64,000 bases of DNA from Alphaproteobacteria bacterium. Its GTDB lineage: Bacteria; Pseudomonadota; Alphaproteobacteria; RF32; CAG-239. The stretch covers positions 267-64,266 of the forward strand of contig JAFUXF010000021.1 in the NCBI GenBank assembly GCA_017477185.1, in the 5' to 3' direction. The notes below the pieces were generated by a model. That model saw nothing but the letters and a program-made list of their open reading frames with translations. It ran no database searches and was not told where the DNA came from. The position numbers and the translations under genes were made by a program. Positions 1-18,056 of the stretch are shown here, in pieces. Each line of letters opens with the position of its first letter. Positions within the stretch are counted from its first letter, which is position 1.

Positions 1-110
1 GGCTGTTTTTTTATTTTCAAAGACTTTAGGGTTGTGTGAATTTACAGGGTTTACATTATAATTCAAGTCATATAAAATAACCGCAATTGTTTATCTTACG
101 GAGAAAAATT

Positions 111-920
111 ATGGCTACAGTTCATTTAATGGTCGGATTTATGGGGTTCGGAAAAACGACAATTGCAAAGCAACTGGCAGAAACAATTCCTGCCGTGAGA
201 TTAACGCACGATGAATTTATGCTCAAGCGTTACGGAAGAGATCCTGATGATTTCCAGACAAAGTACAATATCATCGATGAAGAAATCCGCAAAAAAGCCT
301 CAGAACTCGTCAACGCCGGGCAAAGTGTCATTTTAGATTATGGGTTTTGGACACATGCCAAGCGTGAAGAGTATTATAAATGGGCAAAAACACTAACAAA
401 TGATGTGATTTTTCACGTTGTTTATTGCGATATGAATATTGCCAAGCAGAGGATTTTGGCGCGAACGGCAAATGATGTTGATTCTTTGGAAATTGATGAA
501 AATGCTTTTAATACCTTGGCTCAAAAATTTGAATCATGGAACTATATGGATGATTATCCTGTTGTTTTTCATAATTTACCGACAACACGTTATATCGGCA
601 ATCAGGTCTTGGTTAAAATTGACCGACCATTGGGCAGCAAGCATCCGAAATATGGTTTCGAATATCCAGTTAATTATGGGTATGTCCCCTTTACAAAGTC
701 GGGAGATGGAGAGGAGCTGGATGCCTATGTTTTGATGGAGGATAAACCTCTTGCCAAGTATATAGGGCGATGTATCGCTGTTGTTCACCGCACGGATGAT
801 GATGACGACAAGCTTATTGTTGTGCCGGAAGCATATGATTTGGCTGATGATATTATTGAAGAAAATATCACTTTTCAAGAAAAGTGGTTTAAGCATATTC
901 TGATCAGACAGCCTAAATAA
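111..920 (+). CDS. Fusion protein: N-terminal P-loop NTPase/kinase domain plus C-terminal family I inorganic pyrophosphatase-like domain
   Basis: ORF 87-920. The ATG at 111 is preferred because GGAG lies at 99-102. Walker A GFMGFGKTT is present. The C-terminal half has PPase-type motifs VKIDRPLGSKHPKY, YPVNYGYVP, GDGEELDAYVL and DDDDDKLIVVP. Confidence 0.7.
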   Translation: MATVHLMVGFMGFGKTTIAKQLAETIPAVRLTHDEFMLKRYGRDPDDFQTKYNIIDEEIRKKASELVNAGQSVILDYGFWTHAKREEYYKWAKTLTNDVIFHVVYCDMNIAKQRILARTANDVDSLEIDENAFNTLAQKFESWNYMDDYPVVFHNLPTTRYIGNQVLVKIDRPLGSKHPKYGFEYPVNYGYVPFTKSGDGEELDAYVLMEDKPLAKYIGRCIAVVHRTDDDDDKLIVVPEAYDLADDIIEENITFQEKWFKHILIRQPK

Positions 921-1278: not shown

Positions 1279-2886
1279 TTATTCCATATCTTCATAAAAA
1301 TGCTCAGACAAATCCGTCCAAATAACCATTCTTTTTTGCTTGAATTTTTCATCATCTTCCAAAATATCCATTTTAGGGTTATAGTGGTCATGATGAATCG
1401 AAGCAAGCCTTGTAATTGTTTCCGGAATATAATTTGAAATTACAGGCTTATCTTTTTGTTTTGACAATTTATTCCACATAATCCTATTTTCCTCTGTATT
1501 TAAATAGGCATCATTTGCATACCAAAATATAGGAATATGAAATGATTGAGGAACATTGGCTACCATCCATTTTCCATTGTCAAATATATTTATGGCATGA
1601 TCTGAAGAAAAAACTAAAAATGTACTCGAAGGAATTTTATTTATTGTCTTCAAAAATTCCTGAATTACATAAACACTATACTCCATCGCATTTTCGTATG
1701 TTTTCAAAATTATTTCCTTGTTTTCATTTTTTAGCGGCAAATGATTTTGTTTCAGAGAAGGCTTGTGTTTATCGAAAGAATTCGGATAACGATCTTCAAA
1801 ATTATAGTGACAACCGATTATTTTGATAACAACTAACTTCTTTTTATCATCTTTTCGCAAAATATTGTCGACAAGCGGTATTATCTCTGCGTCATTAACA
1901 AAATCATCAGGTGTACCGTCTGGATATTTTATCGGGACATAATCTTTTCTTCCGGAGCCATATTGGCTGAAATTCTGGCTTTCTATGGTGATAAAATTGA
2001 TATTATCATCACCAACGTGCAATTTTTTCAGATAACTTATAAAATATGTTTCATAACCAGCTTCTTCAAAAAGTTTAAATATGGAAGATTCATAAAAAAG
2101 AGGTTTTTTCTCATTTACTGTTTTACGAGAGAGAATTTGTGGCATAGCCCATAAAGTATAGGCATATTGCGATATTGCATCCGACATAAGAATAATATTG
2201 TTACCCATAAAATTATGCCACACTTTTTCAAAATAATCATATCGTTGGCTTTCTCCGATAAATATAATAACATTTTGAGGAGAATTTTGAGACGAAACGG
2301 CTCCCCATTTAAAATTGTTTTTCTCTTTTATTTGCTTCCCGTAATCATGTGATTGAGATATATACTTTGATATTTCCTTTATATAAGGTTTTCCTGCGCC
2401 TGTCCATAAAGAAAAAAGCATTATTAAAAAATATATAAACCATCCTCTTTTTTTGAACTTTATAAATAACATGATTATGAATAAAAATGCGAGAATAAAA
2501 AAGATTGTAAGTTCAAATGGTGATAATAGATTAATATAAGAAGCCATTTCCATGATGTTTGTATCAAAAGTTACAGCTAAAATTTGTTGTGCCATTGATT
2601 TAAAAGGTGCTCCATACAGGTGCACAAAATGCCAATCAAACAACAAAATCATTCCCGTAAAAAAATAAAATATACTAAAAATCCATCCAGGAGAAAATAG
2701 TGATAGAAACACTAGTGTAGATGAAGAAATAATAGTATATTTAATTTTTATGTACGGATTCAAAAATAGGCAAATTATCTCTATTAGTGATAAAATGAGC
2801 ATAAAAACAGTATATTTATTTTGTAAAATTTTTTTGCAGATTTGTGAAGTGTTTTTTCGTATTTTAGCCAGCATTTTCAGCTCCAT
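1279..2886 (-). CDS. Phosphoethanolamine transferase / sulfatase-family inner-membrane protein (EptA-like)
   Basis: 535 aa. The N-terminal ~170 aa are multi-pass hydrophobic. Alkaline-phosphatase-superfamily motifs follow: VIIFIGESQRYDY and LVFSSDHA. It is the last gene of a tightly packed minus-strand operon. An alternative start is at 2874. Confidence 0.7.
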   Translation of the reverse strand: MELKMLAKIRKNTSQICKKILQNKYTVFMLILSLIEIICLFLNPYIKIKYTIISSSTLVFLSLFSPGWIFSIFYFFTGMILLFDWHFVHLYGAPFKSMAQQILAVTFDTNIMEMASYINLLSPFELTIFFILAFLFIIMLFIKFKKRGWFIYFLIMLFSLWTGAGKPYIKEISKYISQSHDYGKQIKEKNNFKWGAVSSQNSPQNVIIFIGESQRYDYFEKVWHNFMGNNIILMSDAISQYAYTLWAMPQILSRKTVNEKKPLFYESSIFKLFEEAGYETYFISYLKKLHVGDDNINFITIESQNFSQYGSGRKDYVPIKYPDGTPDDFVNDAEIIPLVDNILRKDDKKKLVVIKIIGCHYNFEDRYPNSFDKHKPSLKQNHLPLKNENKEIILKTYENAMEYSVYVIQEFLKTINKIPSSTFLVFSSDHAINIFDNGKWMVANVPQSFHIPIFWYANDAYLNTEENRIMWNKLSKQKDKPVISNYIPETITRLASIHHDHYNPKMDILEDDEKFKQKRMVIWTDLSEHFYEDME

Positions 2887-4895
2887 TTTTTTAATTTGCT
2901 TTTATATTTATTTCTTTTTTTACCAAAAGTAATTTTTGAAAGAATTTTGTATTTATAATATTTCAAAGAACTTTTGTTCCCTTTTTCAATTTTTCCTATT
3001 TCTCTTTTTGAAAAATGGGGATTATTTTCATCCAATCTTTGAGAGAAAATATCCTGAAATTCAGGTTTCAACCAATGTGTTCCATCAAGACAAACTCTAT
3101 CTCTGATTTGTGCAAAAGTTGGTGCATCAAAGCCGACAATGTCACCAAAAGACAAAAACGCATGGTTATTCCAACAATGCGGATTAGGACAATGACATCC
3201 TATCGGATGTGATTCTAAAGGGGTTGTTAAGTCTTCAAAAATATTCTGTATCTTACCGCAACCATAACATTGAGCTACATCACCAGTTCCTAAATTAACG
3301 CAATAAGACCAATGCCCTGCATAGCAAAATTCTGTTCTTTTTTTCTCAAATAAAGGTAGTTTAAAATCGAACATCGGTGATTTAAAATCGCCCCATATCT
3401 TTCGGGCTTCTTCACACGAATAGTCTGATAATCTTGGAATACCAGGCTTAGTTTCATCTCTGGCAATTGTCAAATGACATAAAGCCCCCAATTCTTTCAT
3501 GCAAACTTCTTTAATATCTGGAATGTGCGGAATCAATTCATCCACAACAGTTAGTTCCACTGTAAAGGATGCCGGACTTTCTTTTATTTTGCGAATATTA
3601 CTAAAGAATTGCTCCATTAAGTTTGTGCGCTTTAATTCAAGATATTGAAAAGAGCATTTGAAGAATAATCGTTTCAGAAGCTCTTTATCCAATGCCAAAA
3701 TCTCATCAAAGCGTTTAGATACTGTTGTGTTAGTCACAATCATTACATAGTGTCCTTCTTGTAATAAACAACGAGCAATATCTGTTATTTCCGGTGGTAA
3801 AAGCGTTTCACCACCACCACACAAATTGATAAGGGACACCCCTCCCAAGCGTTTTTTTGATAGTGCTCTGGCGATATATTCAGGAGAATATTTAAACTCA
3901 GGCAATTTTTCGCCCCACCATTTATTTTGAGTGATATAGCAATAATGGCATTTGAAATTACATGTCTTTACCGGAACATAACAATCTAAGAATTTTACAA
4001 TTTTATCATTCTTTTCAGCAGAGTCATTTAAAATATTCACATTACCCAATGTCGACATCGTTTGCGCATGAACACCCTTTAATTTGCCATAAATGTTATC
4101 ATGTATAATGACCTGTTTTCCTAAAAGGGCACTGGCAATTGCGATATGCAACCGATCTGTCCGAATAACATCAAAATGATTTAATAATTCAAACATCATA
4201 TTCGTTGCAAATTCTATATTTTCGATCGGTTCCCATGGACTGAACCACCCCATTTCATTTGATAAATCCAAATCAGTTTGATAGTGTCCCTCTGATTCTG
4301 AATCTTTTCGGAACAATCTCACATCTTTTGGCAAAGATTTAACTATTTGGCGCAATTTAGATGAAGCTTTTTTCAAATCCTTCGTCGGAGCCAACATATT
4401 TGTTTTGATACTGCCACTTAAACGAAATGCCATATCGTGATCCAATAATATTTTTGCCCGAGTATTTTGTGATTTTAAATATTCAAAAGATTCTTTTTCC
4501 CTGCAAAAAACAGTAAAGCGCTTATCCAAAATTTTAATAAATTCAGGTACATCTCGAAAAGAAGACGGAAGAATAACAACTCTTTCAGCCTTTTGCATCA
4601 GATTCATAATCGGTTGCAAACCTTCTATCCAATCGTGTGTCCATGCACCGCCACCACCATAAACAAAGTATTTAATATTTTTTTCAGATTGATTGAATCG
4701 TCCCCAATTTAAGTGGTTTTGATTAAACCATCTGATTGTAGCAGCAGCAATGAGCATATCACCCATATTGCCACTGTTAGGAATATAAGCAAATGCCCCC
4801 AAACTCTCTAATTCTGATAACAACAAAGTATCATCCAACTTCATAGGATTATATTTTATAGATTCTTTTACTTTTAAAAATTGAAATAAATCCAT
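2877..4895 (-). CDS. Fusion of a polysaccharide pyruvyl-transferase domain (N-terminal) and a radical SAM domain with a SPASM/twitch-like Cys-rich tail (C-terminal)
   Basis: N-terminal motifs NSGNMGDMLIAAAT and TDRLHIAIASALLGKQVIIHD fit the PS_pyruv_trans pattern. CNFKCHYC (CX3CX2C, nt 3939-3962) is followed by GGGETLL. The C-terminal cluster is CYAGHWSYCVNLGTGDVAQCYGCG...CHCPNPHC. Confidence 0.75.
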   Translation of the reverse strand: MDLFQFLKVKESIKYNPMKLDDTLLLSELESLGAFAYIPNSGNMGDMLIAAATIRWFNQNHLNWGRFNQSEKNIKYFVYGGGGAWTHDWIEGLQPIMNLMQKAERVVILPSSFRDVPEFIKILDKRFTVFCREKESFEYLKSQNTRAKILLDHDMAFRLSGSIKTNMLAPTKDLKKASSKLRQIVKSLPKDVRLFRKDSESEGHYQTDLDLSNEMGWFSPWEPIENIEFATNMMFELLNHFDVIRTDRLHIAIASALLGKQVIIHDNIYGKLKGVHAQTMSTLGNVNILNDSAEKNDKIVKFLDCYVPVKTCNFKCHYCYITQNKWWGEKLPEFKYSPEYIARALSKKRLGGVSLINLCGGGETLLPPEITDIARCLLQEGHYVMIVTNTTVSKRFDEILALDKELLKRLFFKCSFQYLELKRTNLMEQFFSNIRKIKESPASFTVELTVVDELIPHIPDIKEVCMKELGALCHLTIARDETKPGIPRLSDYSCEEARKIWGDFKSPMFDFKLPLFEKKRTEFCYAGHWSYCVNLGTGDVAQCYGCGKIQNIFEDLTTPLESHPIGCHCPNPHCWNNHAFLSFGDIVGFDAPTFAQIRDRVCLDGTHWLKPEFQDIFSQRLDENNPHFSKREIGKIEKGNKSSLKYYKYKILSKITFGKKRNKYKSKLKKWS

Positions 4896-4896
4896 A

Positions 4897-5766
4897 TTAT
4901 TTTCTCCCTACCACTATTTCTACGCCAAAAATCGTCAGAATTTTCTTCTTTTTACCTGTTATCTTTTGGTTTCTGAGTGAGAAAATTCTTTGCCAAAATG
5001 TATATTTCATCTTTTGAGAGAATTGTTGTGGACACACTAAGTTCAGGATTTTTTGCTGTAATTCTTTATCATCCGTCAGAAAATCAAGCATATTTTGTTT
5101 GATTTTTTTAGTCGTTTCTTGTTGAATCTCCGAAAAGGCTGAGGAAATTTGATCATTATGACACCTATAATTGAGTAAAACTTCCTGAAGATTATATAAT
5201 TCAGTATATTTAATCATCCTCGTCCAAAGTTCATAATCCTCAGCATGAAGATAATTTTCATATTTGAGATGATATTTCTCTAAAATGGATTTTCTAACCA
5301 TAATAGAAGGATGAGCTACTTGATTTCCCTTTATCATATCTAAATATTTAGAATATTCTTTAATGTAAATAATATTTTCTTGAGGGAAAGTCTTAATTAA
5401 AGAACCGACCAATCCTGTCTCTGGATGTTCATCTAAATAATCAACTTGCTTTTCAAATCGCTCTGGTAGAGATATGTCATCAGAATCCATACGAGCAATA
5501 TATTCACCTTTGCAAAGTTCCAATCCTTTATTAAGCGTATAAATTAGTCCACGGTTTTCTTGTTCAAAATATTTAATGCGCCTGTCTCGATACGACCAGA
5601 TAACCTCTTTAGCATTATTGGTTGAACCGTCATCTATAATCAAAAACTCAAAATCTCTAAAAGTCTGATTAAGAATGCTCTCAATCGCTTCGCGCAAATA
5701 CTCTTCCTTTGTATTATAAACCGGCATCAAAACAGAAACTTTGGGCTTATCGTTTTTTGTTGTCAT
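4897..5766 (-). CDS. Family 2 glycosyltransferase
   Basis: VSVLMPVYNTKEEYLREAIESILNQTFRDFEFLIIDDGSTNN and the DSDD motif are present. Its stop lies 1 nt from the start of the next gene. Confidence 0.85.
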   Translation of the reverse strand: MTTKNDKPKVSVLMPVYNTKEEYLREAIESILNQTFRDFEFLIIDDGSTNNAKEVIWSYRDRRIKYFEQENRGLIYTLNKGLELCKGEYIARMDSDDISLPERFEKQVDYLDEHPETGLVGSLIKTFPQENIIYIKEYSKYLDMIKGNQVAHPSIMVRKSILEKYHLKYENYLHAEDYELWTRMIKYTELYNLQEVLLNYRCHNDQISSAFSEIQQETTKKIKQNMLDFLTDDKELQQKILNLVCPQQFSQKMKYTFWQRIFSLRNQKITGKKKKILTIFGVEIVVGRK

Positions 5767-6941: not shown

Positions 6942-7262
6942 ATGAATAATCCTGAATTACCACAATTAAAAATTGAGCAACAAAAAGATAATGATAAGTT
7001 AGTTTGCAAATTGGCTGGTTGGTTGGATCCTAATACTTCGCCAGACTTACTTTGTAAAATTGATCTTACACGTGTTCAGTCTCTTATTTTCGATATGACT
7101 AATATTGAATATATCTTTTCTTCCGGTTTACGCGTCATGCTTATTTTCCAAAAAATGATGTCTGAAAACGGAGGAACCATGAAATTGATAAACGTGCCGG
7201 AGCAAATCAGGTCTATTTTTGAAGACACCGGTTTAGATAAAATGCTAGCAACAAAAGTATGA
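6942..7262 (+). CDS. STAS-domain anti-sigma-factor antagonist (SpoIIAA/RsbV-like)
   Basis: 106 aa. It has the STAS-like core LIFDMTNIEYIFSSGLRVML and the ending INVPEQIRSIFEDTGLDK. An ATGA overlap links it to the next gene. Confidence 0.75.
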   Translation: MNNPELPQLKIEQQKDNDKLVCKLAGWLDPNTSPDLLCKIDLTRVQSLIFDMTNIEYIFSSGLRVMLIFQKMMSENGGTMKLINVPEQIRSIFEDTGLDKMLATKV

Positions 7263-9583
7263 TGAACTGGCTCAATAAGCATTCTCTGACCTTTAAACTA
7301 AGTATCACTATTATTGCATGCGTATGCACTGTTTTTTTTGCGCTTATTTACTTTATTTCGGGACGGGTAGAAAAAATCATTCTCGCTCAAATAAATCATA
7401 CCGCACAAGAGGCCGTTAATGCTTATGCCGGAGATTTTAATCGTCTGACATCTGATGTAGAGCAAATTGTTACTAACACAAAAAACACTCTGTCTCAAAT
7501 AAGAGAAACAAATATATCTTCTTTGAAAGTTGCCCTAAATTCAGCAATCCAGACAGTTGAAGATTCTGATTTAAATTTTACGGAAGCATGGGTATATACT
7601 TTTCCTGCTGAAGATGTGTCAGTCGGTACGCTTTATATCAGTGAATATCTGAATGATGATAAAATCGATTTTTACAGCAAAAAAATAAATAACTTTTATG
7701 AGGCTTTCCCTTGGTTCAAAGAAGTTCCAAAGAAAGAAAAAATTTATTGGTCTGAACCCTATATTGATGCGGATACCGGAAAAACGGTCGTAACTTGTCT
7801 TATTCCGTTTAAATTTAAGGATGAAACAGATTTTAATGGTTTAGCGGCACTAACGGTTGATTTATCAACAATCCAAAACAGCATAAATAATTTTTCATTT
7901 TATGAAACGGGTAAATTATTGTTGCTTTCTCGCTCAGGACTTTATGTAACACATCCGGATAAAAATATTGTATTAAAGATGACAATTTTTGAATTGTCCA
8001 AAAAAATTAACTTACCCGAACTTGAAACAGCCGGAAAAAAAATGTTTGCCGGTGAAACCGGAAATATTTGGATACCGTATTCTTCTGTTTATAAAGGTCC
8101 GGTGATTTTCTTTTATACGCCAATTAAAAAAATTGGTTGGGGGCTTTGTTTGGTATATGCACAGAGTGTGCTCTTAAAACCGATACAGCGTTTTCAAATT
8201 ATCATGACTATCGGTTTATTGGTAGGGATACTAACGCTTTTATTCATCATTAATCAAATTTGCAAGCACTCTACCAATCAACTTCTAAAATTAAGTAAAT
8301 TAGCAGAAAAGTATGGGCGCGGCGATTTTTCTGACAAATTTACTGAGGTTCCTTATTCTTCAGATATTGGGGTTTTATCTTTAGCTCTTTCTAACATGAG
8401 GGAAAATTTGCTCAATTATACTGAAAAAGAAAGACAAGAAGCAGCAGAAAAACAAAAAAGTCAAAGTGAACTTGAAATTGCTCGGAATATCCAGAAAGCA
8501 TCCCTTTCGACTAAATATCCGCAACATCAGGCTTTTAATATCTCAACTGTAATGATTCCTGCCAGAGAAGTCGGGGGTGATTTTTATGACTTCTTCTTTA
8601 TTGATCAGGATCATTTTGCTATCGTTATGGCTGATGTTTCCGGTAAGGGTATTCCTGCCGCATTGTATATGATGAAATCTCAAACTTTGATTAAGAACAT
8701 AAGTAAAGGTCATCTCGGTTTAGATAAAGTATTTTATCATGTCAATAATGAACTTTGTGAAGGAAATGATACCTGTATGTTTGTGACGGTATTTATGGCT
8801 GTTATTGATTTATTAAACGGGGAAGTCCAGTATGTTAATGCCGGTCATACGCCACCACTGCTTAAAACCAAAAACGGTTATGACTTTATGTCCCCGAAAA
8901 AAAATCTTATTCTGGGAATTTCCAAAAACACTAAATTTGCGGTTGAAAAAATAAAATTAAATATGGGGGATCATCTTTTCTTATATACAGATGGTGTCAC
9001 AGAAGCAGAAAATGCAAAGGCTCAATTTTATGGAGCAGACCGTCTTAAGAAAATATTACAAAAAGCAACTGATGATCCCGAAACAAATTTAAACCTCGTC
9101 CTAAACAGCATAAAAAAATTTGTCAAAGAGAATGCTCAATCTGATGATATCACGATGCTTGACTTTGCTTACTTAGGTTCTTCCGAGGGGTATTTGAGGC
9201 TTCCAGCTAATAACAAAACTCTATCTAAAATGATAGACTTCTTAAAAACAGATATGGCTAAACATTTTGTTCCTCAAAAAAAGCAATTCAACGTTATTAT
9301 CGCTGCTGAAGAAATTTTTTCTAATATTGCAAATTATGCTTATCAAAAAGATGGCATTGTTGAAATTTTAACTTATGTTCATGACGGCATTTATTATGTT
9401 CGTTTTTCTGATTCTGGAAAAAAATATAATCCTCTGGAACATCAGGAGCCTGATGTAACGGTCGACTTGAAAGATCGAAAAATCGGCGGTCTTGGCATTT
9501 TTTTAGTAAAAAAACTATCAGATACAATCACCTATTCTTACGAAAAAAAGAAAAATGTTCTAACTATCGGTGTATCCTTGTGA
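7259..9583 (+). CDS. Membrane sensor with Cache-like periplasmic domain, HAMP, PP2C/SpoIIE phosphatase and C-terminal RsbW-like HATPase (anti-sigma serine kinase) domain
   Basis: Two TM segments flank a ~290-aa extracytoplasmic region. The SpoIIE motif is PAREVGGDFYDFFFID...ADVSGKGIPAALYM...YTDGVTEA...QSDDIT. The C-terminus carries AAEEIFSNIANYAY...GGLGIFLVKKLSD. Confidence 0.8.
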   Translation: MMNWLNKHSLTFKLSITIIACVCTVFFALIYFISGRVEKIILAQINHTAQEAVNAYAGDFNRLTSDVEQIVTNTKNTLSQIRETNISSLKVALNSAIQTVEDSDLNFTEAWVYTFPAEDVSVGTLYISEYLNDDKIDFYSKKINNFYEAFPWFKEVPKKEKIYWSEPYIDADTGKTVVTCLIPFKFKDETDFNGLAALTVDLSTIQNSINNFSFYETGKLLLLSRSGLYVTHPDKNIVLKMTIFELSKKINLPELETAGKKMFAGETGNIWIPYSSVYKGPVIFFYTPIKKIGWGLCLVYAQSVLLKPIQRFQIIMTIGLLVGILTLLFIINQICKHSTNQLLKLSKLAEKYGRGDFSDKFTEVPYSSDIGVLSLALSNMRENLLNYTEKERQEAAEKQKSQSELEIARNIQKASLSTKYPQHQAFNISTVMIPAREVGGDFYDFFFIDQDHFAIVMADVSGKGIPAALYMMKSQTLIKNISKGHLGLDKVFYHVNNELCEGNDTCMFVTVFMAVIDLLNGEVQYVNAGHTPPLLKTKNGYDFMSPKKNLILGISKNTKFAVEKIKLNMGDHLFLYTDGVTEAENAKAQFYGADRLKKILQKATDDPETNLNLVLNSIKKFVKENAQSDDITMLDFAYLGSSEGYLRLPANNKTLSKMIDFLKTDMAKHFVPQKKQFNVIIAAEEIFSNIANYAYQKDGIVEILTYVHDGIYYVRFSDSGKKYNPLEHQEPDVTVDLKDRKIGGLGIFLVKKLSDTITYSYEKKKNVLTIGVSL

Positions 9584-14637: not shown

Positions 14638-16869
14638 ATGGCGGAAAAAACTGATACAAATGCGAAAAAAAGTCCTAAAGAGCTTAATCAGGAAAAAGCT
14701 GCATCCCTGCTTTTTGATCGTAAAAATTTAAATAAAATAAGTCTGAAAAATCTTTTGAAAACCCAAGAGATTCTTGCCGGGGCTCATCAAGATAAAAATT
14801 CCGGTAAATCATCTGATGTAATTGAAACTCTTATTTCTCCTAAAGCACAGAAGAATCTTGATTATGCTGTCCTTGGCATTTTGGAACAAGTTGCTGCCGG
14901 TAAATATCTGAGCAATGATTGGGAAACCTACAAACAACAAAAAGAAGAAATTTTAGCTTTAATGGATGCTTCTCCAAATTTAAAAAAGAATTTTCCGAAT
15001 ACCATTGCAATGGTTAATCGTCGTTTACGTCCGACTGAAGAACAAAAGCCAAGAGTTAAATTATATCATGGTGACATGAAAAAAGGCTTTGTTAATTCCG
15101 CTATTATTTATAATAACTTTTACGCTGCAGATTCTTGGGGAAAGAAAAATGTCATTCGTCCATGGCGTAAATTTAAGAGAAATGTCAATAAATTATTTGA
15201 ACCATCTGCAGCAGCCAAACTGGCTCGTTTACAGAGGCACAACAACAAGATTAAGCGCAAATTATGGCGTCAAGAAAAATGGGAGGATGCTAAAAATTGG
15301 GTTAAATCTCGTCCGAGTTGGCTGAACAAAAAACGTAAAGAACTCGGGGGTAAGATTGCCAAATGGTTTAAAGAAAAAACATGGGTCGGAAAAAAACTGG
15401 TTGCTGCAAACAAGTGGCGCAAAGATACCGGTCGCAAAATCAAAAATGGTATCGTAAATGCCGGAAAAACGGTTTGGGGAATTACCAAGCAAGTTGGACA
15501 TGGTATTTACGTCGGAGCTAAATATGCAGCCTTAGGGGCGACAGCTCCTATTTGGGGACCTCCGTATATTGTGTATAAAGGAGCAAAAGCCGGTTATGAT
15601 TGGACGAAGGGAAAATATAATCAGACAAAAGATAACATCAAGGGTAAGATGAATGATGAAACAGCTAAAGCTACCCAAGACCGGCAAAAATATGTTGACC
15701 GTAATCCTCATCCGTATGAGAAACTGAATGATGATCAACAAAAAAATGTTAACAATATATTGAAAACTTACACAAATCAAGCTCGTCCGATGCGAGAAGA
15801 TGGTGTTCGCAAAGATACAACTAAGTGGGTAGCTGATGATGTTGAGCGTCAGGCTGCAAAAGAAATGCTGGGCAAATTGATTCAGCCGAAAGATAAAGGC
15901 GGACTGGAACTCCCTCCTGAGCAAGCTAAAGAAATTATGGACTTTTTCCAAAAACAAGGCTTAATGAAAAGTACTTATGATGATATTGCAAAAGATGATA
16001 ACATCAATAAGTCGGTGCAAGAAGAACATCGTGAACCCGCACATGAGGCAAAAGTTGAAGTTAATGACAATCAATCAAAAGGAGGCGAAGAGCAAACTCA
16101 GCCTATGTCTGTAGAACAGCAGATAGAAAAATTACAACTGGAAACATCTCAGCAGACTGTGGTTTCATCTCATTTAAAATTGTTAAAACAAATGCAACAA
16201 AATGAAACAAACCAAGAAGTTTTGAATACAATGACAGAGAGTTATACCCAAGTATTTAAGGATATTGGTGTTTCTGAAGAAAAAATTGCACAAATCAAGG
16301 AAATGAATCCTGATTTATTCCCGAAGAAAGAGAAAGCTCAAGAAACAGAAGAAGCAACGGAAATAAAACAGACCACCGTCAAGAATGATCGAGGAGATGA
16401 TGTGAATATTGTCAGTGGCGAGGGAAACATTGACAGACAACCATCTAATGGCGAATCTTTGAACACGAACCAACCAACAGCTCAAGAAATTGAACTTAAT
16501 GCGTATAAAGAAATTAAAGATCCAACAAAAGAATATTCTGGAGGACAGAGAAAAACCTTAAATGATTTATTAGAGGCTTATGAATTAGAAAAAAAGAGTA
16601 AAGGTGAAGAAATTGCTGAAACTAATTTTAAATTACGAGCTCAGGGACCACGCAAAAGAACGAGTATTAAATCAGAGACATCATATGGTAAAGGTCATAA
16701 GATTCTTGGAGGATTGGAGCTTAATGAAGAGCAATGGAATGAATTAAAAGAATATCTTGGAAAATCCGGAAAAATTCCGGAATTTGCTCCGAAACAACAG
16801 AGAAATGTTCAAAACAAAGAAATGAATAATGTTATTATAAATGCAAAGGAGAAACTCCAAAATAGTTAG
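14638..16869 (+). CDS. Hypothetical 743-aa Lys/Trp/Glu-rich protein, no recognisable domain
   Basis: A long uninterrupted ORF with a GGAGG RBS. No signal peptide is seen. A basic W/K-rich block (KLWRQEKWEDAKNWVKSRPSWLNKKRK...KWFKEKTW) is followed by a Gly/Ala-rich hydrophobic patch and an acidic Q/E-rich C-terminal half. Confidence 0.6.
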   Translation: MAEKTDTNAKKSPKELNQEKAASLLFDRKNLNKISLKNLLKTQEILAGAHQDKNSGKSSDVIETLISPKAQKNLDYAVLGILEQVAAGKYLSNDWETYKQQKEEILALMDASPNLKKNFPNTIAMVNRRLRPTEEQKPRVKLYHGDMKKGFVNSAIIYNNFYAADSWGKKNVIRPWRKFKRNVNKLFEPSAAAKLARLQRHNNKIKRKLWRQEKWEDAKNWVKSRPSWLNKKRKELGGKIAKWFKEKTWVGKKLVAANKWRKDTGRKIKNGIVNAGKTVWGITKQVGHGIYVGAKYAALGATAPIWGPPYIVYKGAKAGYDWTKGKYNQTKDNIKGKMNDETAKATQDRQKYVDRNPHPYEKLNDDQQKNVNNILKTYTNQARPMREDGVRKDTTKWVADDVERQAAKEMLGKLIQPKDKGGLELPPEQAKEIMDFFQKQGLMKSTYDDIAKDDNINKSVQEEHREPAHEAKVEVNDNQSKGGEEQTQPMSVEQQIEKLQLETSQQTVVSSHLKLLKQMQQNETNQEVLNTMTESYTQVFKDIGVSEEKIAQIKEMNPDLFPKKEKAQETEEATEIKQTTVKNDRGDDVNIVSGEGNIDRQPSNGESLNTNQPTAQEIELNAYKEIKDPTKEYSGGQRKTLNDLLEAYELEKKSKGEEIAETNFKLRAQGPRKRTSIKSETSYGKGHKILGGLELNEEQWNELKEYLGKSGKIPEFAPKQQRNVQNKEMNNVIINAKEKLQNS

Positions 16870-18056
16870 GGTTTAGAGCGGACAAACACCTCAACAACCC
16901 TATCTAACACACCTTTGACTTCAGAGAGGCAGATTCCGTAATTGGTTATTGCTACCCTTGCGCTTTCGCATTTTTGGATACGAGATAAAATCTCTCTCCG
17001 GTTTTGCGTGCAACCACCGCACTGCACAACTAACTTATACTCTTGCAAATTATCAGGAAACGTACAACCGGAGCAAAAATCAAACTGCAAATTCTTTCCG
17101 GTTTTCTTTTTCAAACCATTCGGAATTTTAACTTTTCCGATATCATCATCAATGGCATGGTGGGTACAAGCCTCCGCAATCAAAACCTTGTCTCCGTCTT
17201 GTAATCGGTTTATTGCTTCAGCTCCCTCTGCCATTTTAAGCAAATCTCCTTTAAGGCGGGCAAATAAAATAGAAAACGTTGTACATAAAATATCTTCCGG
17301 TGTATTGGATATCATAAAATCAACCACCTGTGAGTCACAAACGACCAAGTCCGGCTTATTTTTCAGGCTGTTTAAGGCTTGAACATACTCTGTTTCTTTA
17401 ACCACAATCACAATGTTATCATGGTCGAGCGCATCTCGTATGGCTTGAACTTGGGGCATAATCAACCGCCCTTTCGGGGCTTCTTTATCAATCGGGGTTA
17501 ATAATATAATCGTGCTGTGGGGCGGAACTAAATCGCCCAGCAAAGCAGGTGCTTGAATGAAATCTTCCGGCACAACTTTAATCAAGGCTTCTTTCAGCTC
17601 ATTCAAAACTCTGTCTCGGCTCGATTTGTCGGTTGAATTAACGCAAATACTTTCACCGGAAATATCGGACAAATCTGCTTTATTATGAACTTTTATCAAT
17701 GGAATTTTGCGCTTTTCGCACTCGGCAATAATTGTTTCTTCTTCCTCACCCCACTTTGATCCGTCACAAATCAGCAAAGCGACATCCGCCTTATCTAAGA
17801 TACGTTGTGTTTTTGCCAAGCGCTTTTCACCCAATGCCGTTTCATCACCTAAACCGGCAGTATCCAACCAGACGACAGGACCGATCGGCAAAAGTTCTTG
17901 TGTTTTTTCAACCACATCGGTTGTGGTTCCGGCAATAGCGGACGTAATAGAGACATCTTGTCCGGTCACAAGGTTTAAAAAGCTTGATTTTCCGGCATTG
18001 ACACGTCCTAACAAAGCAATATGAAGGCGCAAAGATTTCGGTGCTGACTGCATCAT
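16866..18056 (-). CDS. HydF-like GTPase ([FeFe]-hydrogenase maturation GTPase family)
   Basis: G1 is GRVNAGKSS. GTTTDVVEK...IGPVVWLDTAGLGD is present, and G4 is NKAD. The C-terminal Cys motif is EACTHH...VVQCGGC, against the HydF pattern CxH...HCxxC. Confidence 0.6.
   Translation of the reverse strand: MMQSAPKSLRLHIALLGRVNAGKSSFLNLVTGQDVSITSAIAGTTTDVVEKTQELLPIGPVVWLDTAGLGDETALGEKRLAKTQRILDKADVALLICDGSKWGEEEETIIAECEKRKIPLIKVHNKADLSDISGESICVNSTDKSSRDRVLNELKEALIKVVPEDFIQAPALLGDLVPPHSTIILLTPIDKEAPKGRLIMPQVQAIRDALDHDNIVIVVKETEYVQALNSLKNKPDLVVCDSQVVDFMISNTPEDILCTTFSILFARLKGDLLKMAEGAEAINRLQDGDKVLIAEACTHHAIDDDIGKVKIPNGLKKKTGKNLQFDFCSGCTFPDNLQEYKLVVQCGGCTQNRREILSRIQKCESARVAITNYGICLSEVKGVLDRVVEVFVRSKP

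What the first reader, a model, noticed from the sequence alone, without database searches (positions are those of the whole stretch)
1279..5766. Pyruvyl-transferase fused to a radical SAM/SPASM enzyme inside a GT2 / PEtn-transferase operon
The 672-aa protein (2877-4895) joins two normally separate enzymes.
- **N-terminal half:** polysaccharide pyruvyl-transferase motifs (NSGNMGDML, TDRLHIAIASALLGKQV).
- **C-terminal half:** a CX3CX2C radical SAM core (CNFKCHYC, nt 3939-3962), GGGETLL, and a Cys-rich SPASM/twitch-like tail.

It is translationally packed between a GT2 glycosyltransferase and an EptA-like phosphoethanolamine transferase, with gaps of 1 nt and an overlap. This implies one pathway that decorates LPS or another envelope glycan. 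A radical step coupled to ketal-pyruvate transfer on a sugar could mean methylation, epimerisation or C-C chemistry on the pyruvylated residue. I do not know of a described pathway of this kind.
Basis: partly seen in the sequence, partly recalled or inferred. Interest (0 to 1): 0.65.

Follow-up and report, generated by a model that had tools for sequence, protein, structure and literature searches.

The report
Pyruvyltransferase fused to radical SAM partner
This is a real single gene that joins a sugar-pyruvylating enzyme to an iron-sulfur radical enzyme, and in gut bacteria of many phyla these two enzymes are almost always neighbours or fused, which points to an undescribed radical step in decorating cell-surface sugars.

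Summary
ORF 2877-4895 (minus strand, 672 aa) is one uninterrupted frame, identical in contigs from four gut-metagenome samples.

- **N-half:** a WbbZ-clade, PEP-dependent glycan pyruvyltransferase (PyrT). It passes the Pfam threshold, matches PDB 6X1L at E 2e-28, and has all three WbbZ signature motifs.
- **C-half:** a radical SAM (rSAM) enzyme with CX3CX2C, a GGE motif and a twitch-type tail. The tail has four invariant Cys, which fits one auxiliary cluster and not a full SPASM domain.

The rSAM half belongs to an unstudied family of 346 clusters at 50% identity, found in gut and rumen anaerobes of many phyla. Its steady partner is a pyruvyltransferase:

- 76 of 80 genomic loci carry one on the same strand within 3 kb, mostly directly adjacent.
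- 23 of 150 representative clusters are fused to one, in either domain order, from several independent events.
- Close relatives carry the same GT2, PyrT and rSAM modules as three genes, as GT2-PyrT plus rSAM, or as one triple fusion.

The rSAM is much more conserved than its partner (median 54% against 31% identity).

Best reading: a two-step tailoring module for a lipid-linked envelope glycan, with pyruvyl transfer followed by radical chemistry of unknown type. I found no published description. The PEtn-transferase-like gene is linked only in this window.

The parts
4897..5766 (-). GT2 glycosyltransferase (289 aa) with a basic C-terminal tail. Orthologous to the N-terminal half of the GT2-PyrT fusions in related Alphaproteobacteria.
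   Evidence: Pfam Glycos_transf_2 at 119.7 bits. 55% identity to residues 2-240 of the L013/L011 GT2-PyrT proteins. Tail has 9 K/R in the last 35 residues.
2877..4895 (-). Whole fusion ORF, 672 aa: PyrT domain, short linker, rSAM core, twitch domain, basic tail.
   Evidence: AF2 model with mean pLDDT 90.9; the only low-confidence internal stretch is residues 292-294. Identical in contigs from four samples.
4011..4895 (-). Pyruvyltransferase domain (residues 1-295), WbbZ clade. Motifs N43xG45D46, R132xxxS136 and TDRLH250.
   Evidence: PF04230 at 51.7 bits. PDB 6X1L WbbZ at E 2.4e-28 by sequence, and Foldseek E 9e-18 with TMt 0.76; Pvg1p 5AX7 at E 5e-9. Motif conservation. Motif definitions come from PMC10629545.
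3990..4037 (-). Fusion joint (residues 287-302, NILNDSAEKN|DKIVKF). Stand-alone rSAM relatives start at M(T)DKIVKF.
   Evidence: Sequence. pLDDT below 50 at residues 292-294. No variation in four samples.
3336..4007 (-). Radical SAM core (residues 297-520). C312x3C316x2C319 lies at nt 3939-3962 and G360GGETLL at nt 3798-3818.
   Evidence: PF04055 at 38.8 bits. The three Cys are invariant in 116 of 116 family members. Fold matches rSAM structures.
3066..3335 (-). Twitch-type auxiliary-cluster domain (residues 521-610): C524-X13-G538-X4-C543 and C569-X4-C574, plus near-invariant H573 and H578.
   Evidence: The four Cys are invariant in 116 of 116 members. Foldseek matches SPASM/twitch enzymes SkfB, SuiB, BlsE, anSME, BtrN and MoaA.
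2880..2984 (-). Strongly basic C-terminal tail (residues 638-672; 14 K/R, 0 D/E). Probably a peripheral membrane anchor.
   Evidence: The same 'YKILSKITFGKKR' tail occurs on another protein of a same-genus genome. Lower pLDDT of 60-69.
1279..2886 (-). Membrane-anchored alkaline-phosphatase-fold transferase (535 aa), PEtn-transferase-like and nearest CptA/EptC. Overlaps the fusion gene by 10 nt.
   Evidence: Pfam Sulfatase at 87.6 bits. NCBIfam CptA at 90 bits against a cut-off of 404. PDB EptC 5ZZU at E 9e-12. N-terminal hydrophobic spans. No close ortholog in 36 related genomes.

Best explanation
The 672-aa protein is a genuine bifunctional glycan-tailoring enzyme. A WbbZ-type, PEP-dependent pyruvyltransferase is fused to a member of an uncharacterised family of twitch-type radical SAM enzymes, and that family is the near-obligate genomic partner of polysaccharide pyruvyltransferases.

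**Proposed working (inferred):**
1. At the cytoplasmic face of the inner membrane, held there by basic C-terminal tails, the GT2 adds a sugar to a lipid-linked envelope glycan.
2. The PyrT domain transfers the three-carbon unit of PEP onto that sugar, as a pyruvate ketal or its enolpyruvyl precursor.
3. The radical SAM domain cleaves SAM reductively and uses the 5'-deoxyadenosyl radical to abstract a hydrogen from the pyruvylated sugar or the pyruvyl group. Its fully Cys-ligated auxiliary cluster handles the extra electron. The result is a substituent not yet described for polysaccharides.
4. In this genome a membrane PEtn-transferase-like enzyme may add a further group after export.

**Shown:** the domain identities, the reality of the fusion, and the conserved pairing with repeated independent fusion.

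**Inferred:** the order of steps, the target glycan and the radical chemistry. Candidate chemistries are PolH-like C-C cyclisation onto an enolpyruvyl ether, radical ring-opening of the ketal to a lactyl ether plus a keto-sugar, BtrN-like dehydrogenation, and BlsE-like dehydration or decarboxylation.
For: **Domains:**

**Real frame:** (four samples, 0 differences).

**Pairing:**
- 76 of 80 loci from many phyla carry a PS_pyruv_trans domain on the same strand within 3 kb of the rSAM. It is immediately adjacent for 63 of 83 rSAM ORFs and lies on either side.
- Pfam confirms 53 of 53 partner rows.
- The pair also occurs in same-family genome G028 and in an unverified phage-labelled contig.

**Fusions:**
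- 23 of 150 representative clusters are fused to PyrT, in both orders.
- GT2-PyrT-rSAM triple fusions exist.
- The tree needs about 16 architecture changes, and the window's fusion is independent because its nearest relatives are not fused to a PyrT.

**Same modules, different gene boundaries:**

**Conservation:** the rSAM is more conserved than the PyrT in 99.8% of locus pairs, with medians of 54% and 31%. This fits an rSAM that recognises a constant PEP-derived feature while the PyrT tracks variable acceptors.

**Other support:**
- WbbZ is a proven PEP-dependent pyruvyltransferase (PMC10629545).
- Enolpyruvyl transfer followed by a radical SAM step has a precedent in PolA/PolH (PMC5365060).
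- The closest folds include the sugar-active twitch enzymes BlsE, DesII and BtrN.
Against: - There is no biochemical or glycan-structure evidence for any family member.
- WbbZ and other characterised pyruvyltransferases work without a radical SAM partner.
- The family also fuses to GT2, GT-D, a methyltransferase and a deacetylase, so it could be a general glycan-tailoring module and not specific to pyruvate.
- The top Foldseek hits by E-value (SkfB, SuiB) modify peptides.
- No structural match exceeds TM 0.59.
- pTM of 0.67 for the full model leaves the relative domain orientation undefined.
- The PEtn-transferase link exists only in this window.
- The four supporting samples come from one study.
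Confidence: 0.7

Rival explanations
1. The radical SAM domain acts upstream, on a nucleotide sugar or other soluble precursor, as DesII and BlsE do. It would make an unusual sugar that the GT2 then transfers and the pyruvyltransferase then modifies. The pairing would reflect a shared sugar, with no chemistry on the pyruvyl group itself.
For: DesII (a TDP-sugar deaminase) and BlsE (which acts on cytosylglucuronate) are among the best structural matches. High rSAM conservation would also fit a constant soluble substrate. GT2 is adjacent or fused in 41 of 80 loci.
Against: The steady partner is the PyrT (76 of 80 loci), not a glycosyltransferase (adjacent in 41 of 80). If the rSAM made a special donor sugar, the transferring GT should be the conserved partner. 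The PyrT partners are very divergent (median 31% identity), which is odd for a single shared acceptor sugar. The basic membrane-type tail and repeated fusion to the PyrT suggest action at the lipid-linked glycan.
Confidence: 0.15
2. The two domains act independently on the same glycan. The rSAM would, for example, epimerise or oxidise a different residue, and the fusions would merely reflect frequent gene adjacency in compact glycan loci.
For: The rSAM family also occurs fused to GT2, GT-D, a methyltransferase and a deacetylase. Four of 80 loci show no PyrT nearby.
Against: Adjacency to PyrT is far more frequent and closer than to the ubiquitous GT2. Fusions to PyrT arose repeatedly and in both orders. 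At least two of the four loci without a PyrT have truncated flanks. rSAM and PyrT divergence are correlated (Spearman 0.40).
Confidence: 0.1
3. The radical SAM domain is a protein maturase. It would be anSME-like for the neighbouring sulfatase-fold protein, or a RiPP-type modifier.
For: anSME, SkfB, SuiB and EpeE are among the structural matches. The next gene has a Sulfatase-fold domain.
Against: The sulfatase-fold gene accompanies the rSAM only in this window. It matches PEtn transferases, and I saw no C/S-x-P-x-R formylglycine motif by eye. The family has four auxiliary Cys, not anSME's two-cluster SPASM. No precursor-peptide or RRE-type gene recurs in the 80 loci.
Confidence: 0.03
4. The fusion is a frameshift or assembly artefact, or a recent inactivating merger of two genes.
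For: Close relatives have a separate rSAM gene that starts exactly at the joint.
Against: Contigs from four samples agree at depths of 17-122 with 0 differences. All catalytic motifs of both halves are intact. Both domains fold confidently. The same architecture arose elsewhere.
Confidence: 0.02

Closest known systems
WbbZ (Klebsiella pneumoniae O1 antigen; PDB 6X1L) and Pvg1p (S. pombe; PDB 5AX7), PEP-dependent glycan pyruvyltransferases, Pfam PF04230
   Same: The N-half shares the fold (TMt 0.76 to 6X1L), is about 29% identical over the aligned structure, and has the motifs NxGD, RxxxS and the conserved His. WbbZ caps a glycan built in the cytoplasm, and some relatives of this module lie beside Wzm/Wzt-type exporter genes.
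   Different: WbbZ is a stand-alone protein of about 270 aa with no radical SAM partner. Here the domain is fused to one, and its orthologs are usually fused to a GT2. Acceptor and linkage are unknown.
PolA/NikO plus PolH/NikJ (polyoxin and nikkomycin biosynthesis): enolpyruvyl transfer from PEP to a sugar hydroxyl, followed by radical SAM C-C cyclisation to octosyl acid phosphate (PMC5365060)
   Same: The logic is the same: a PEP-derived C3 unit is placed on a sugar oxygen and a radical SAM enzyme then acts on that adduct.
   Different: PolA/NikO is described as an enolpyruvyl transferase; from general knowledge it has the MurA-type fold, not PF04230. PolH has its CX3CX2C at residues 225-232 and a single cluster. 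The substrate there is a nucleotide, not a glycan. Homology between PolH and this family was not tested.
Sugar-active twitch radical SAM enzymes: BlsE (7VOB), BtrN (4M7T) and DesII (8HZV)
   Same: Radical SAM core plus a C-terminal auxiliary domain. BlsE gives the best TM-score (TMq 0.52, TMt 0.59). The CX9-15GX4C signature is present.
   Different: Sequence identity is only 13-14% and TM is at most 0.59. The tail has its own CX4C/His-rich motif and about 60 further residues, including a basic tail. Those enzymes act on soluble small molecules in antibiotic pathways and have no pyruvyltransferase partner.
CptA/EptC/EptA phosphoethanolamine transferases (for the third gene)
   Same: Sulfatase-fold periplasmic domain behind an N-terminal multi-span membrane domain. 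EptC 5ZZU matches at E 9e-12.
   Different: Scores are far below all curated equivalog cut-offs. There is no close ortholog in related genomes. The substrate is unknown.

Membership tests
Polysaccharide pyruvyltransferase (PF04230; WbbZ/Pvg1p clade) | Profile match above the Pfam gathering score | tested here: met
   51.7 bits against a cut-off of 25.3, residues 43-264.
Polysaccharide pyruvyltransferase (PF04230; WbbZ/Pvg1p clade) | Conserved motifs NxGD, Rxxx(S/T) and His (WbbZ N29xG31D32, R121, H226; PMC10629545) | tested here: met
   N43-M-G45-D46, R132-EKE-S136 and TDRLH250. The first two are conserved in at least 48 of 52 rSAM-associated PyrT rows.
Polysaccharide pyruvyltransferase (PF04230; WbbZ/Pvg1p clade) | Two-Rossmann, GT-B-like fold as in 6X1L and 5AX7 | tested here: met
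   Foldseek: 6X1L at E 9e-18 with TMt 0.76; 5AX7 at E 5e-9. N-half pLDDT is mostly above 90.
Polysaccharide pyruvyltransferase (PF04230; WbbZ/Pvg1p clade) | PEP-dependent transfer of pyruvate to a sugar diol | not testable with these tools
   Needs an enzyme assay.
Radical SAM superfamily (PF04055) | CX3CX2C cluster motif, GGE SAM-binding motif, profile match above cut-off, partial TIM-barrel fold | tested here: met
   C312/C316/C319 are invariant in 116 of 116 members. GGGETLL at residues 360-366. 38.8 bits against 29.5. Foldseek matches only rSAM structures at E<=1e-3.
Radical SAM superfamily (PF04055) | Reductive cleavage of SAM to the 5'-deoxyadenosyl radical | not testable with these tools
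   Needs anaerobic reconstitution and an assay.
SPASM domain (two auxiliary 4Fe-4S clusters) | Seven-Cys motif CX9-15GX4C ... CX2CX5CX3C ... C (recalled from general knowledge of the family) | tested here: not met
   Only four non-core Cys are invariant (C524, C543, C569, C574). The second block is CX4C, not CX2CX5CX3C. C602 is present in only 77% of members. No Pfam SPASM hit.
Twitch domain (one auxiliary cluster, as in BtrN, MoaA and SkfB) | CX9-15GX4C plus further Cys sufficient for one cluster, C-terminal to the rSAM core | tested here: met
   C524-X13-G538-X4-C543 with G538 invariant, plus C569 and C574. Structural matches to twitch/SPASM enzymes. Cluster binding itself was not tested.
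PolH/NikJ-type enolpyruvyl-cyclising radical SAM | Partner is a PolA/NikO-type enolpyruvyl transferase; rSAM has an N-terminal extension of about 220 aa and a single cluster | tested here: not met
   The partner here is PF04230. CX3CX2C lies 17 residues into the rSAM module, and a four-Cys auxiliary motif is present, against PolH's C225 motif and single cluster. Sequence homology to PolH was not tested. 'Works like' remains open.
PEtn transferase (EptA/EptC/CptA) for ORF 1279-2886 | Curated equivalog or subfamily HMM above cut-off | tested here: not met
   The best hit is CptA at 90.1 bits against a cut-off of 404. Only superfamily-level membership holds: Sulfatase fold, EptC at E 9e-12 and N-terminal membrane spans.
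anSME-type sulfatase maturase | Two-cluster SPASM domain and a recurrent sulfatase partner | tested here: not met
   Four auxiliary Cys only. No sulfatase-fold gene recurs in the 80 loci.

The most novel reading that the evidence does not exclude
The radical SAM family and its pyruvyltransferase partner together install a PEP-derived sugar substituent that has never been described biosynthetically. One route is PolH-like radical C-C cyclisation of an enolpyruvyl ether, giving a bicyclic higher-carbon sugar acid on a polysaccharide. Another is radical ring-opening of the pyruvate ketal, giving a 1-carboxyethyl (lactyl) ether plus a keto-sugar. The second route would explain how lactyl-ether sugars arise in anaerobes. 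The module would then mark an unrecognised class of surface-glycan epitopes in gut Bacteroidales, Clostridia, Akkermansia and gut Alphaproteobacteria.
Probability: 0.35. Interest if true: 0.85.

Novelty: new variant of a known kind. Interest (0 to 1): 0.6.

Why it matters
Pyruvate ketals are common charged decorations of bacterial and yeast glycans. They shape antigenicity, chain termination and recognition by lectins and phages.

If a conserved radical enzyme rewrites that decoration, or acts together with the pyruvyltransferase, then many gut-commensal capsules and lipopolysaccharides carry a chemical group that current structure catalogues and serotype predictions miss.

The family is large, with 346 clusters at 50% identity, and it occurs in cultured Bacteroides, Odoribacter and Pygmaiobacter isolates, so it can be tested.

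The single-polypeptide form in this window, inside a three-gene operon of a 1.58-Mb genome, is a compact construct for heterologous reconstitution. It would also add a new reaction type, or a new substrate class (lipid-linked glycans), to the twitch radical SAM enzymes.

Tried and rejected
- **First full-length alignment (A2):** unusable, because MAFFT laid all PyrT-only rows on the rSAM half. I fixed this by adding three bridge rows that read through the single stop between adjacent in-frame PyrT and rSAM genes of relatives. These rows are an alignment device only and are not claimed to be proteins.
- **Sequence searches of the rSAM half against the PDB:** only marginal hits, SkfB at E 0.01 and TYW1 at E 0.004 over the GGE region. 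These are not informative on their own.
- **Search for an empty site in same-genus genomes:** failed, because only PAP2 and HAD are shared near the operon. No island borders could be drawn.
- **Promoter and terminator scan:** no better than shuffled sequence, 30 sites against 27.7 expected.
- **Search for a third universal partner gene:** none found. The next most common neighbours are Wzx (37 of 80 loci) and Wzm/Wzt (12-16 of 80).
- **Literature searches** for radical SAM with pyruvyl transferase, pyruvyltransferase, pyruvylated, carboxyethyl, or capsular polysaccharide plus twitch: nothing relevant.
- **anSME-like maturase idea** for the neighbouring sulfatase-fold gene: rejected.
- **Frameshift artefact:** rejected.

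Full report
**1. The observation**

Three co-directional ORFs lie on the minus strand:
- a GT2 glycosyltransferase at 4897-5766 (289 aa);
- the 672-aa ORF at 2877-4895;
- a 535-aa ORF at 1279-2886.

The GT2 stop and the next ATG are 1 nt apart. The 672-aa ORF overlaps the start of the third gene by 10 nt.

Pfam places PS_pyruv_trans on residues 43-264 (51.7 bits, cut-off 25.3) and Radical_SAM on residues 307-405 (38.8 bits, cut-off 29.5). GT2 scores 119.7 bits and the third protein has a Sulfatase-fold domain at 87.6 bits.

**2. The fusion is real**

Four gut-metagenome runs from one study each hold a contig covering 1200-5900 with no differences and no gaps, at word depths of 17 to 122. The joint lies at residues 287-302. 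Stand-alone relatives begin with M(T)DKIVKF, which is exactly where the rSAM half starts here.

Both halves fold confidently. The full-length model has mean pLDDT 90.9, with a dip only at residues 292-294. Its pTM of 0.67 leaves the relative orientation of the domains undefined.

**3. The N-half is a pyruvyltransferase of the WbbZ clade**

By sequence it matches PDB 6X1L (WbbZ) at E 2.4e-28. By fold it matches 6X1L at E 9e-18 with TMt 0.76, followed by yeast Pvg1p.

WbbZ is a biochemically validated PEP-dependent pyruvyltransferase. It places a terminal 3,4-linked pyruvate on the Klebsiella O1 antigen and cuts chains short in vitro (PMC10629545). That paper's signature motifs are all present: N43xG45D46, R132xxxS136 and the His of TDRLH250.

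**4. The C-half is a twitch-type radical SAM enzyme**

Across 116 family members the invariant Cys are the CX3CX2C triad plus exactly four others: C524-X13-G538-X4-C543 and C569-X4-C574. H573 and H578 are nearly invariant. C602 is present in only 77% of members. This fits one auxiliary cluster (twitch) and fails the seven-Cys SPASM pattern.

The domain modelled alone has pLDDT 90.9 and pTM 0.87. It matches only SPASM/twitch radical SAM structures. BlsE gives the best TM-score (TMq 0.52, TMt 0.59), followed by SuiB, SkfB, anSME, MoaA, EpeE, DesII and BtrN, all at 12-20% identity. No curated NCBIfam model reaches its cut-off, and source names are generic. It is therefore a distinct, unnamed subfamily.

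**5. The decisive evidence is comparative**

The rSAM half belongs to a well-conserved family. There are 346 clusters at 50% identity with E<=1e-30 among 1.84 billion representatives. A scan of one genome per species found 287 relatives, nearly all from gut or rumen anaerobes: Alphaproteobacteria MAGs, Bacteroidales, Clostridia, Gastranaerophilales, Akkermansia, Kiritimatiellia, Elusimicrobia, Fibrobacter and Spirochaetes.

In the 80 loci fetched:
- 76 have a PS_pyruv_trans domain on the same strand within 3 kb of the rSAM.
- For 63 of 83 rSAM ORFs the domain is immediately adjacent, on either side.
- At least two of the four loci without a partner have truncated flanks.

Pfam confirms all 53 partner rows independently. 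The pair also appears in the one same-family genome that has the rSAM and on an unverified phage-labelled fecal contig. By contrast, a GT2 is adjacent in only 41 of 80 loci, and no other gene is universal.

**6. Fusions recur, in both orders**

Of the 150 best representative clusters, 21 are rSAM-PyrT and 2 are GT2-PyrT-rSAM. P0009 shares the window's order.

A tree of the rSAM domain needs about 16 architecture changes. The window's nearest relatives, at 80% identity, are not fused to a PyrT, so this fusion is its own event.

Close alphaproteobacterial relatives carry the same three modules in the same order, cut differently:
- GT2 | PyrT | rSAM in L018;
- GT2-PyrT | rSAM in L013, and GT2-PyrT followed by a deacetylase-rSAM fusion in L011.

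The window's GT2 and PyrT are 53-57% identical to the two halves of those GT2-PyrT proteins, and its rSAM is about 80% identical to theirs. Among long proteins with this PyrT clade, GT2(-GT2)-PyrT is the usual form and the window's protein is the only PyrT-rSAM listed.

**7. The two partners are conserved unequally**

Over 62 paired loci the rSAM has a median pairwise identity of 54% and its PyrT partner 31%. The rSAM is the more conserved of the two in 99.8% of locus pairs, and the two divergences correlate (Spearman 0.40). I read this as the PyrT tracking variable acceptor sugars while the rSAM recognises a constant feature. The simplest such feature is the PEP-derived group and its immediate surroundings. 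This is an inference.

**8. Setting in this genome**

The genome is 1.58 Mb with 37.8% GC, and the operon has 32.0% GC.
- The fusion is the genome's only PyrT and its only member of this rSAM family.
- My probes found no Wzx or Wzm homolog.
- There are seven GT2 genes.
- The fusion is absent from 13 same-genus genomes, and the third gene has no close ortholog in 36 relatives.

The three genes therefore look like an acquired accessory set.

The flanking genes are mostly unrelated to glycan assembly: an AAA_33-pyrophosphatase fusion, a PAP2 phosphatase, STAS, a SpoIIE-type phosphatase, HAD, an amidohydrolase, MetK and HydF.

GT2 and the fusion have no membrane spans but end in strongly basic tails. 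The third protein has N-terminal hydrophobic spans ahead of its catalytic domain and matches EptC at E 9e-12, yet it scores far below the curated cut-offs.

**9. How it most likely works**

What is shown:
- a PEP-type pyruvyltransferase domain and a twitch radical SAM domain in one real polypeptide;
- the two modules as a conserved pair that has fused repeatedly;
- residence in glycan loci, both Wzx-type and ABC-exporter-type.

What is inferred: the steps take place at the cytoplasmic face on a lipid-linked glycan, because PEP, SAM and a reductant are cytoplasmic.
1. The GT2 adds the acceptor sugar.
2. The PyrT domain adds the C3 unit.
3. The rSAM abstracts a hydrogen from that residue or from the pyruvyl group.
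4. The membrane enzyme may add a phospho-substituent after export.

A fully Cys-ligated auxiliary cluster is typical of enzymes that pass an electron to or from a substrate radical, such as BtrN and anSME. That statement rests on general knowledge and was not tested here.

Candidate chemistries cannot be ranked with the present data:
- PolH-like cyclisation onto an enolpyruvyl ether (precedent in PMC5365060);
- ring-opening of the ketal to a lactyl ether plus a keto-sugar;
- dehydrogenation;
- dehydration or decarboxylation.

One 1305-aa relative joins rSAM, a ferredoxin, an FrhB-like flavoprotein domain and PyrT, which hints at a dedicated electron supply.

**10. Rivals**

- An upstream role on a nucleotide sugar is the main alternative. 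It is weakened because the constant partner is the PyrT, not a glycosyltransferase.
- Independent action on another residue is weakened by the repeated fusions in both orders.
- A protein-maturase role and an artefact are both unlikely.

**11. Known or new**

Pyruvyltransferases and twitch radical SAM sugar enzymes are both known kinds. Their obligate pairing is not described in the searchable literature.

Earlier AI notes from this scan reached the same general reading on other genomes. They are not independent evidence, but my own tests agree with them.

This window adds four things:
- the rare PyrT-then-rSAM order with a WbbZ-clade domain;
- the demonstration that the same three modules occur with different gene boundaries;
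- the conservation asymmetry between the two partners;
- a minimal three-gene context suited to reconstitution.

Noticed in passing
window 2880-2984 and 4900-5004 (minus strand); L004: Both the fusion and the GT2 end in strongly basic tails ('KYYKYKILSKITFGKKRNKYKSKLKKWS' and 'IFSLRNQKITGKKKKILTIFGVEIVVGRK'). A 668-aa ORF of a same-genus genome ends in nearly the same 'YKILSKITFGKKRK' tail, and P0009 carries 'LFSKITVGKKRTYY' at its PyrT/rSAM joint. This looks like a portable membrane-association tag on glycan enzymes.
   Followed up: partly
window 87-920 (+): One 277-aa ORF joins an AAA_33 P-loop kinase-like domain to an inorganic-pyrophosphatase-like domain. An AAA_33/Zeta_toxin-type gene also lies upstream of the related glycan cluster in L011/L012.
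   Followed up: no
window 6942-9583 (+): A STAS protein is followed by a 774-aa protein that combines dCache, SpoIIE-type PP2C phosphatase and an RsbW-like HATPase_c_2 domain. This would be a sensor, phosphatase and anti-sigma-kinase module in one polypeptide.
   Followed up: no
window 16866-18056 (-): HydF, the [FeFe]-hydrogenase maturation GTPase, is present in a 1.58-Mb gut alphaproteobacterial genome. This is consistent with an anaerobic lifestyle and with the use of oxygen-sensitive radical SAM enzymes.
   Followed up: no
window 14638-16869 (+): A 743-aa ORF has no Pfam match at E<=1e-5.
   Followed up: no
P0360 (1305 aa); P0266; P0248; P0257; P0003: The same rSAM family occurs fused to other modules: ferredoxin + FrhB-like + PyrT, a SAM methyltransferase, a GT-D glycosyltransferase, a GT2, and a NodB-type deacetylase. 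About 16 of 150 representative clusters carry an unidentified N-terminal extension of about 125 aa.
   Followed up: partly
L109 (MT838384.1, 'UNVERIFIED: Bacteriophage sp.', 5.3 kb): The record carries rSAM (250-1329), PyrT (1320-2267) and GT2 (2249-3271) in a row. It is either a phage-borne glycan-modifying cassette or a bacterial capsule-locus fragment mislabelled as phage.
   Followed up: partly
L011 9776-10813; L013 8143-9123: In the closest relatives the GT2-PyrT and rSAM genes are followed by GT10 or GT11 fucosyltransferase genes. This suggests fucosylated, possibly host-glycan-like, structures in gut Alphaproteobacteria.
   Followed up: no
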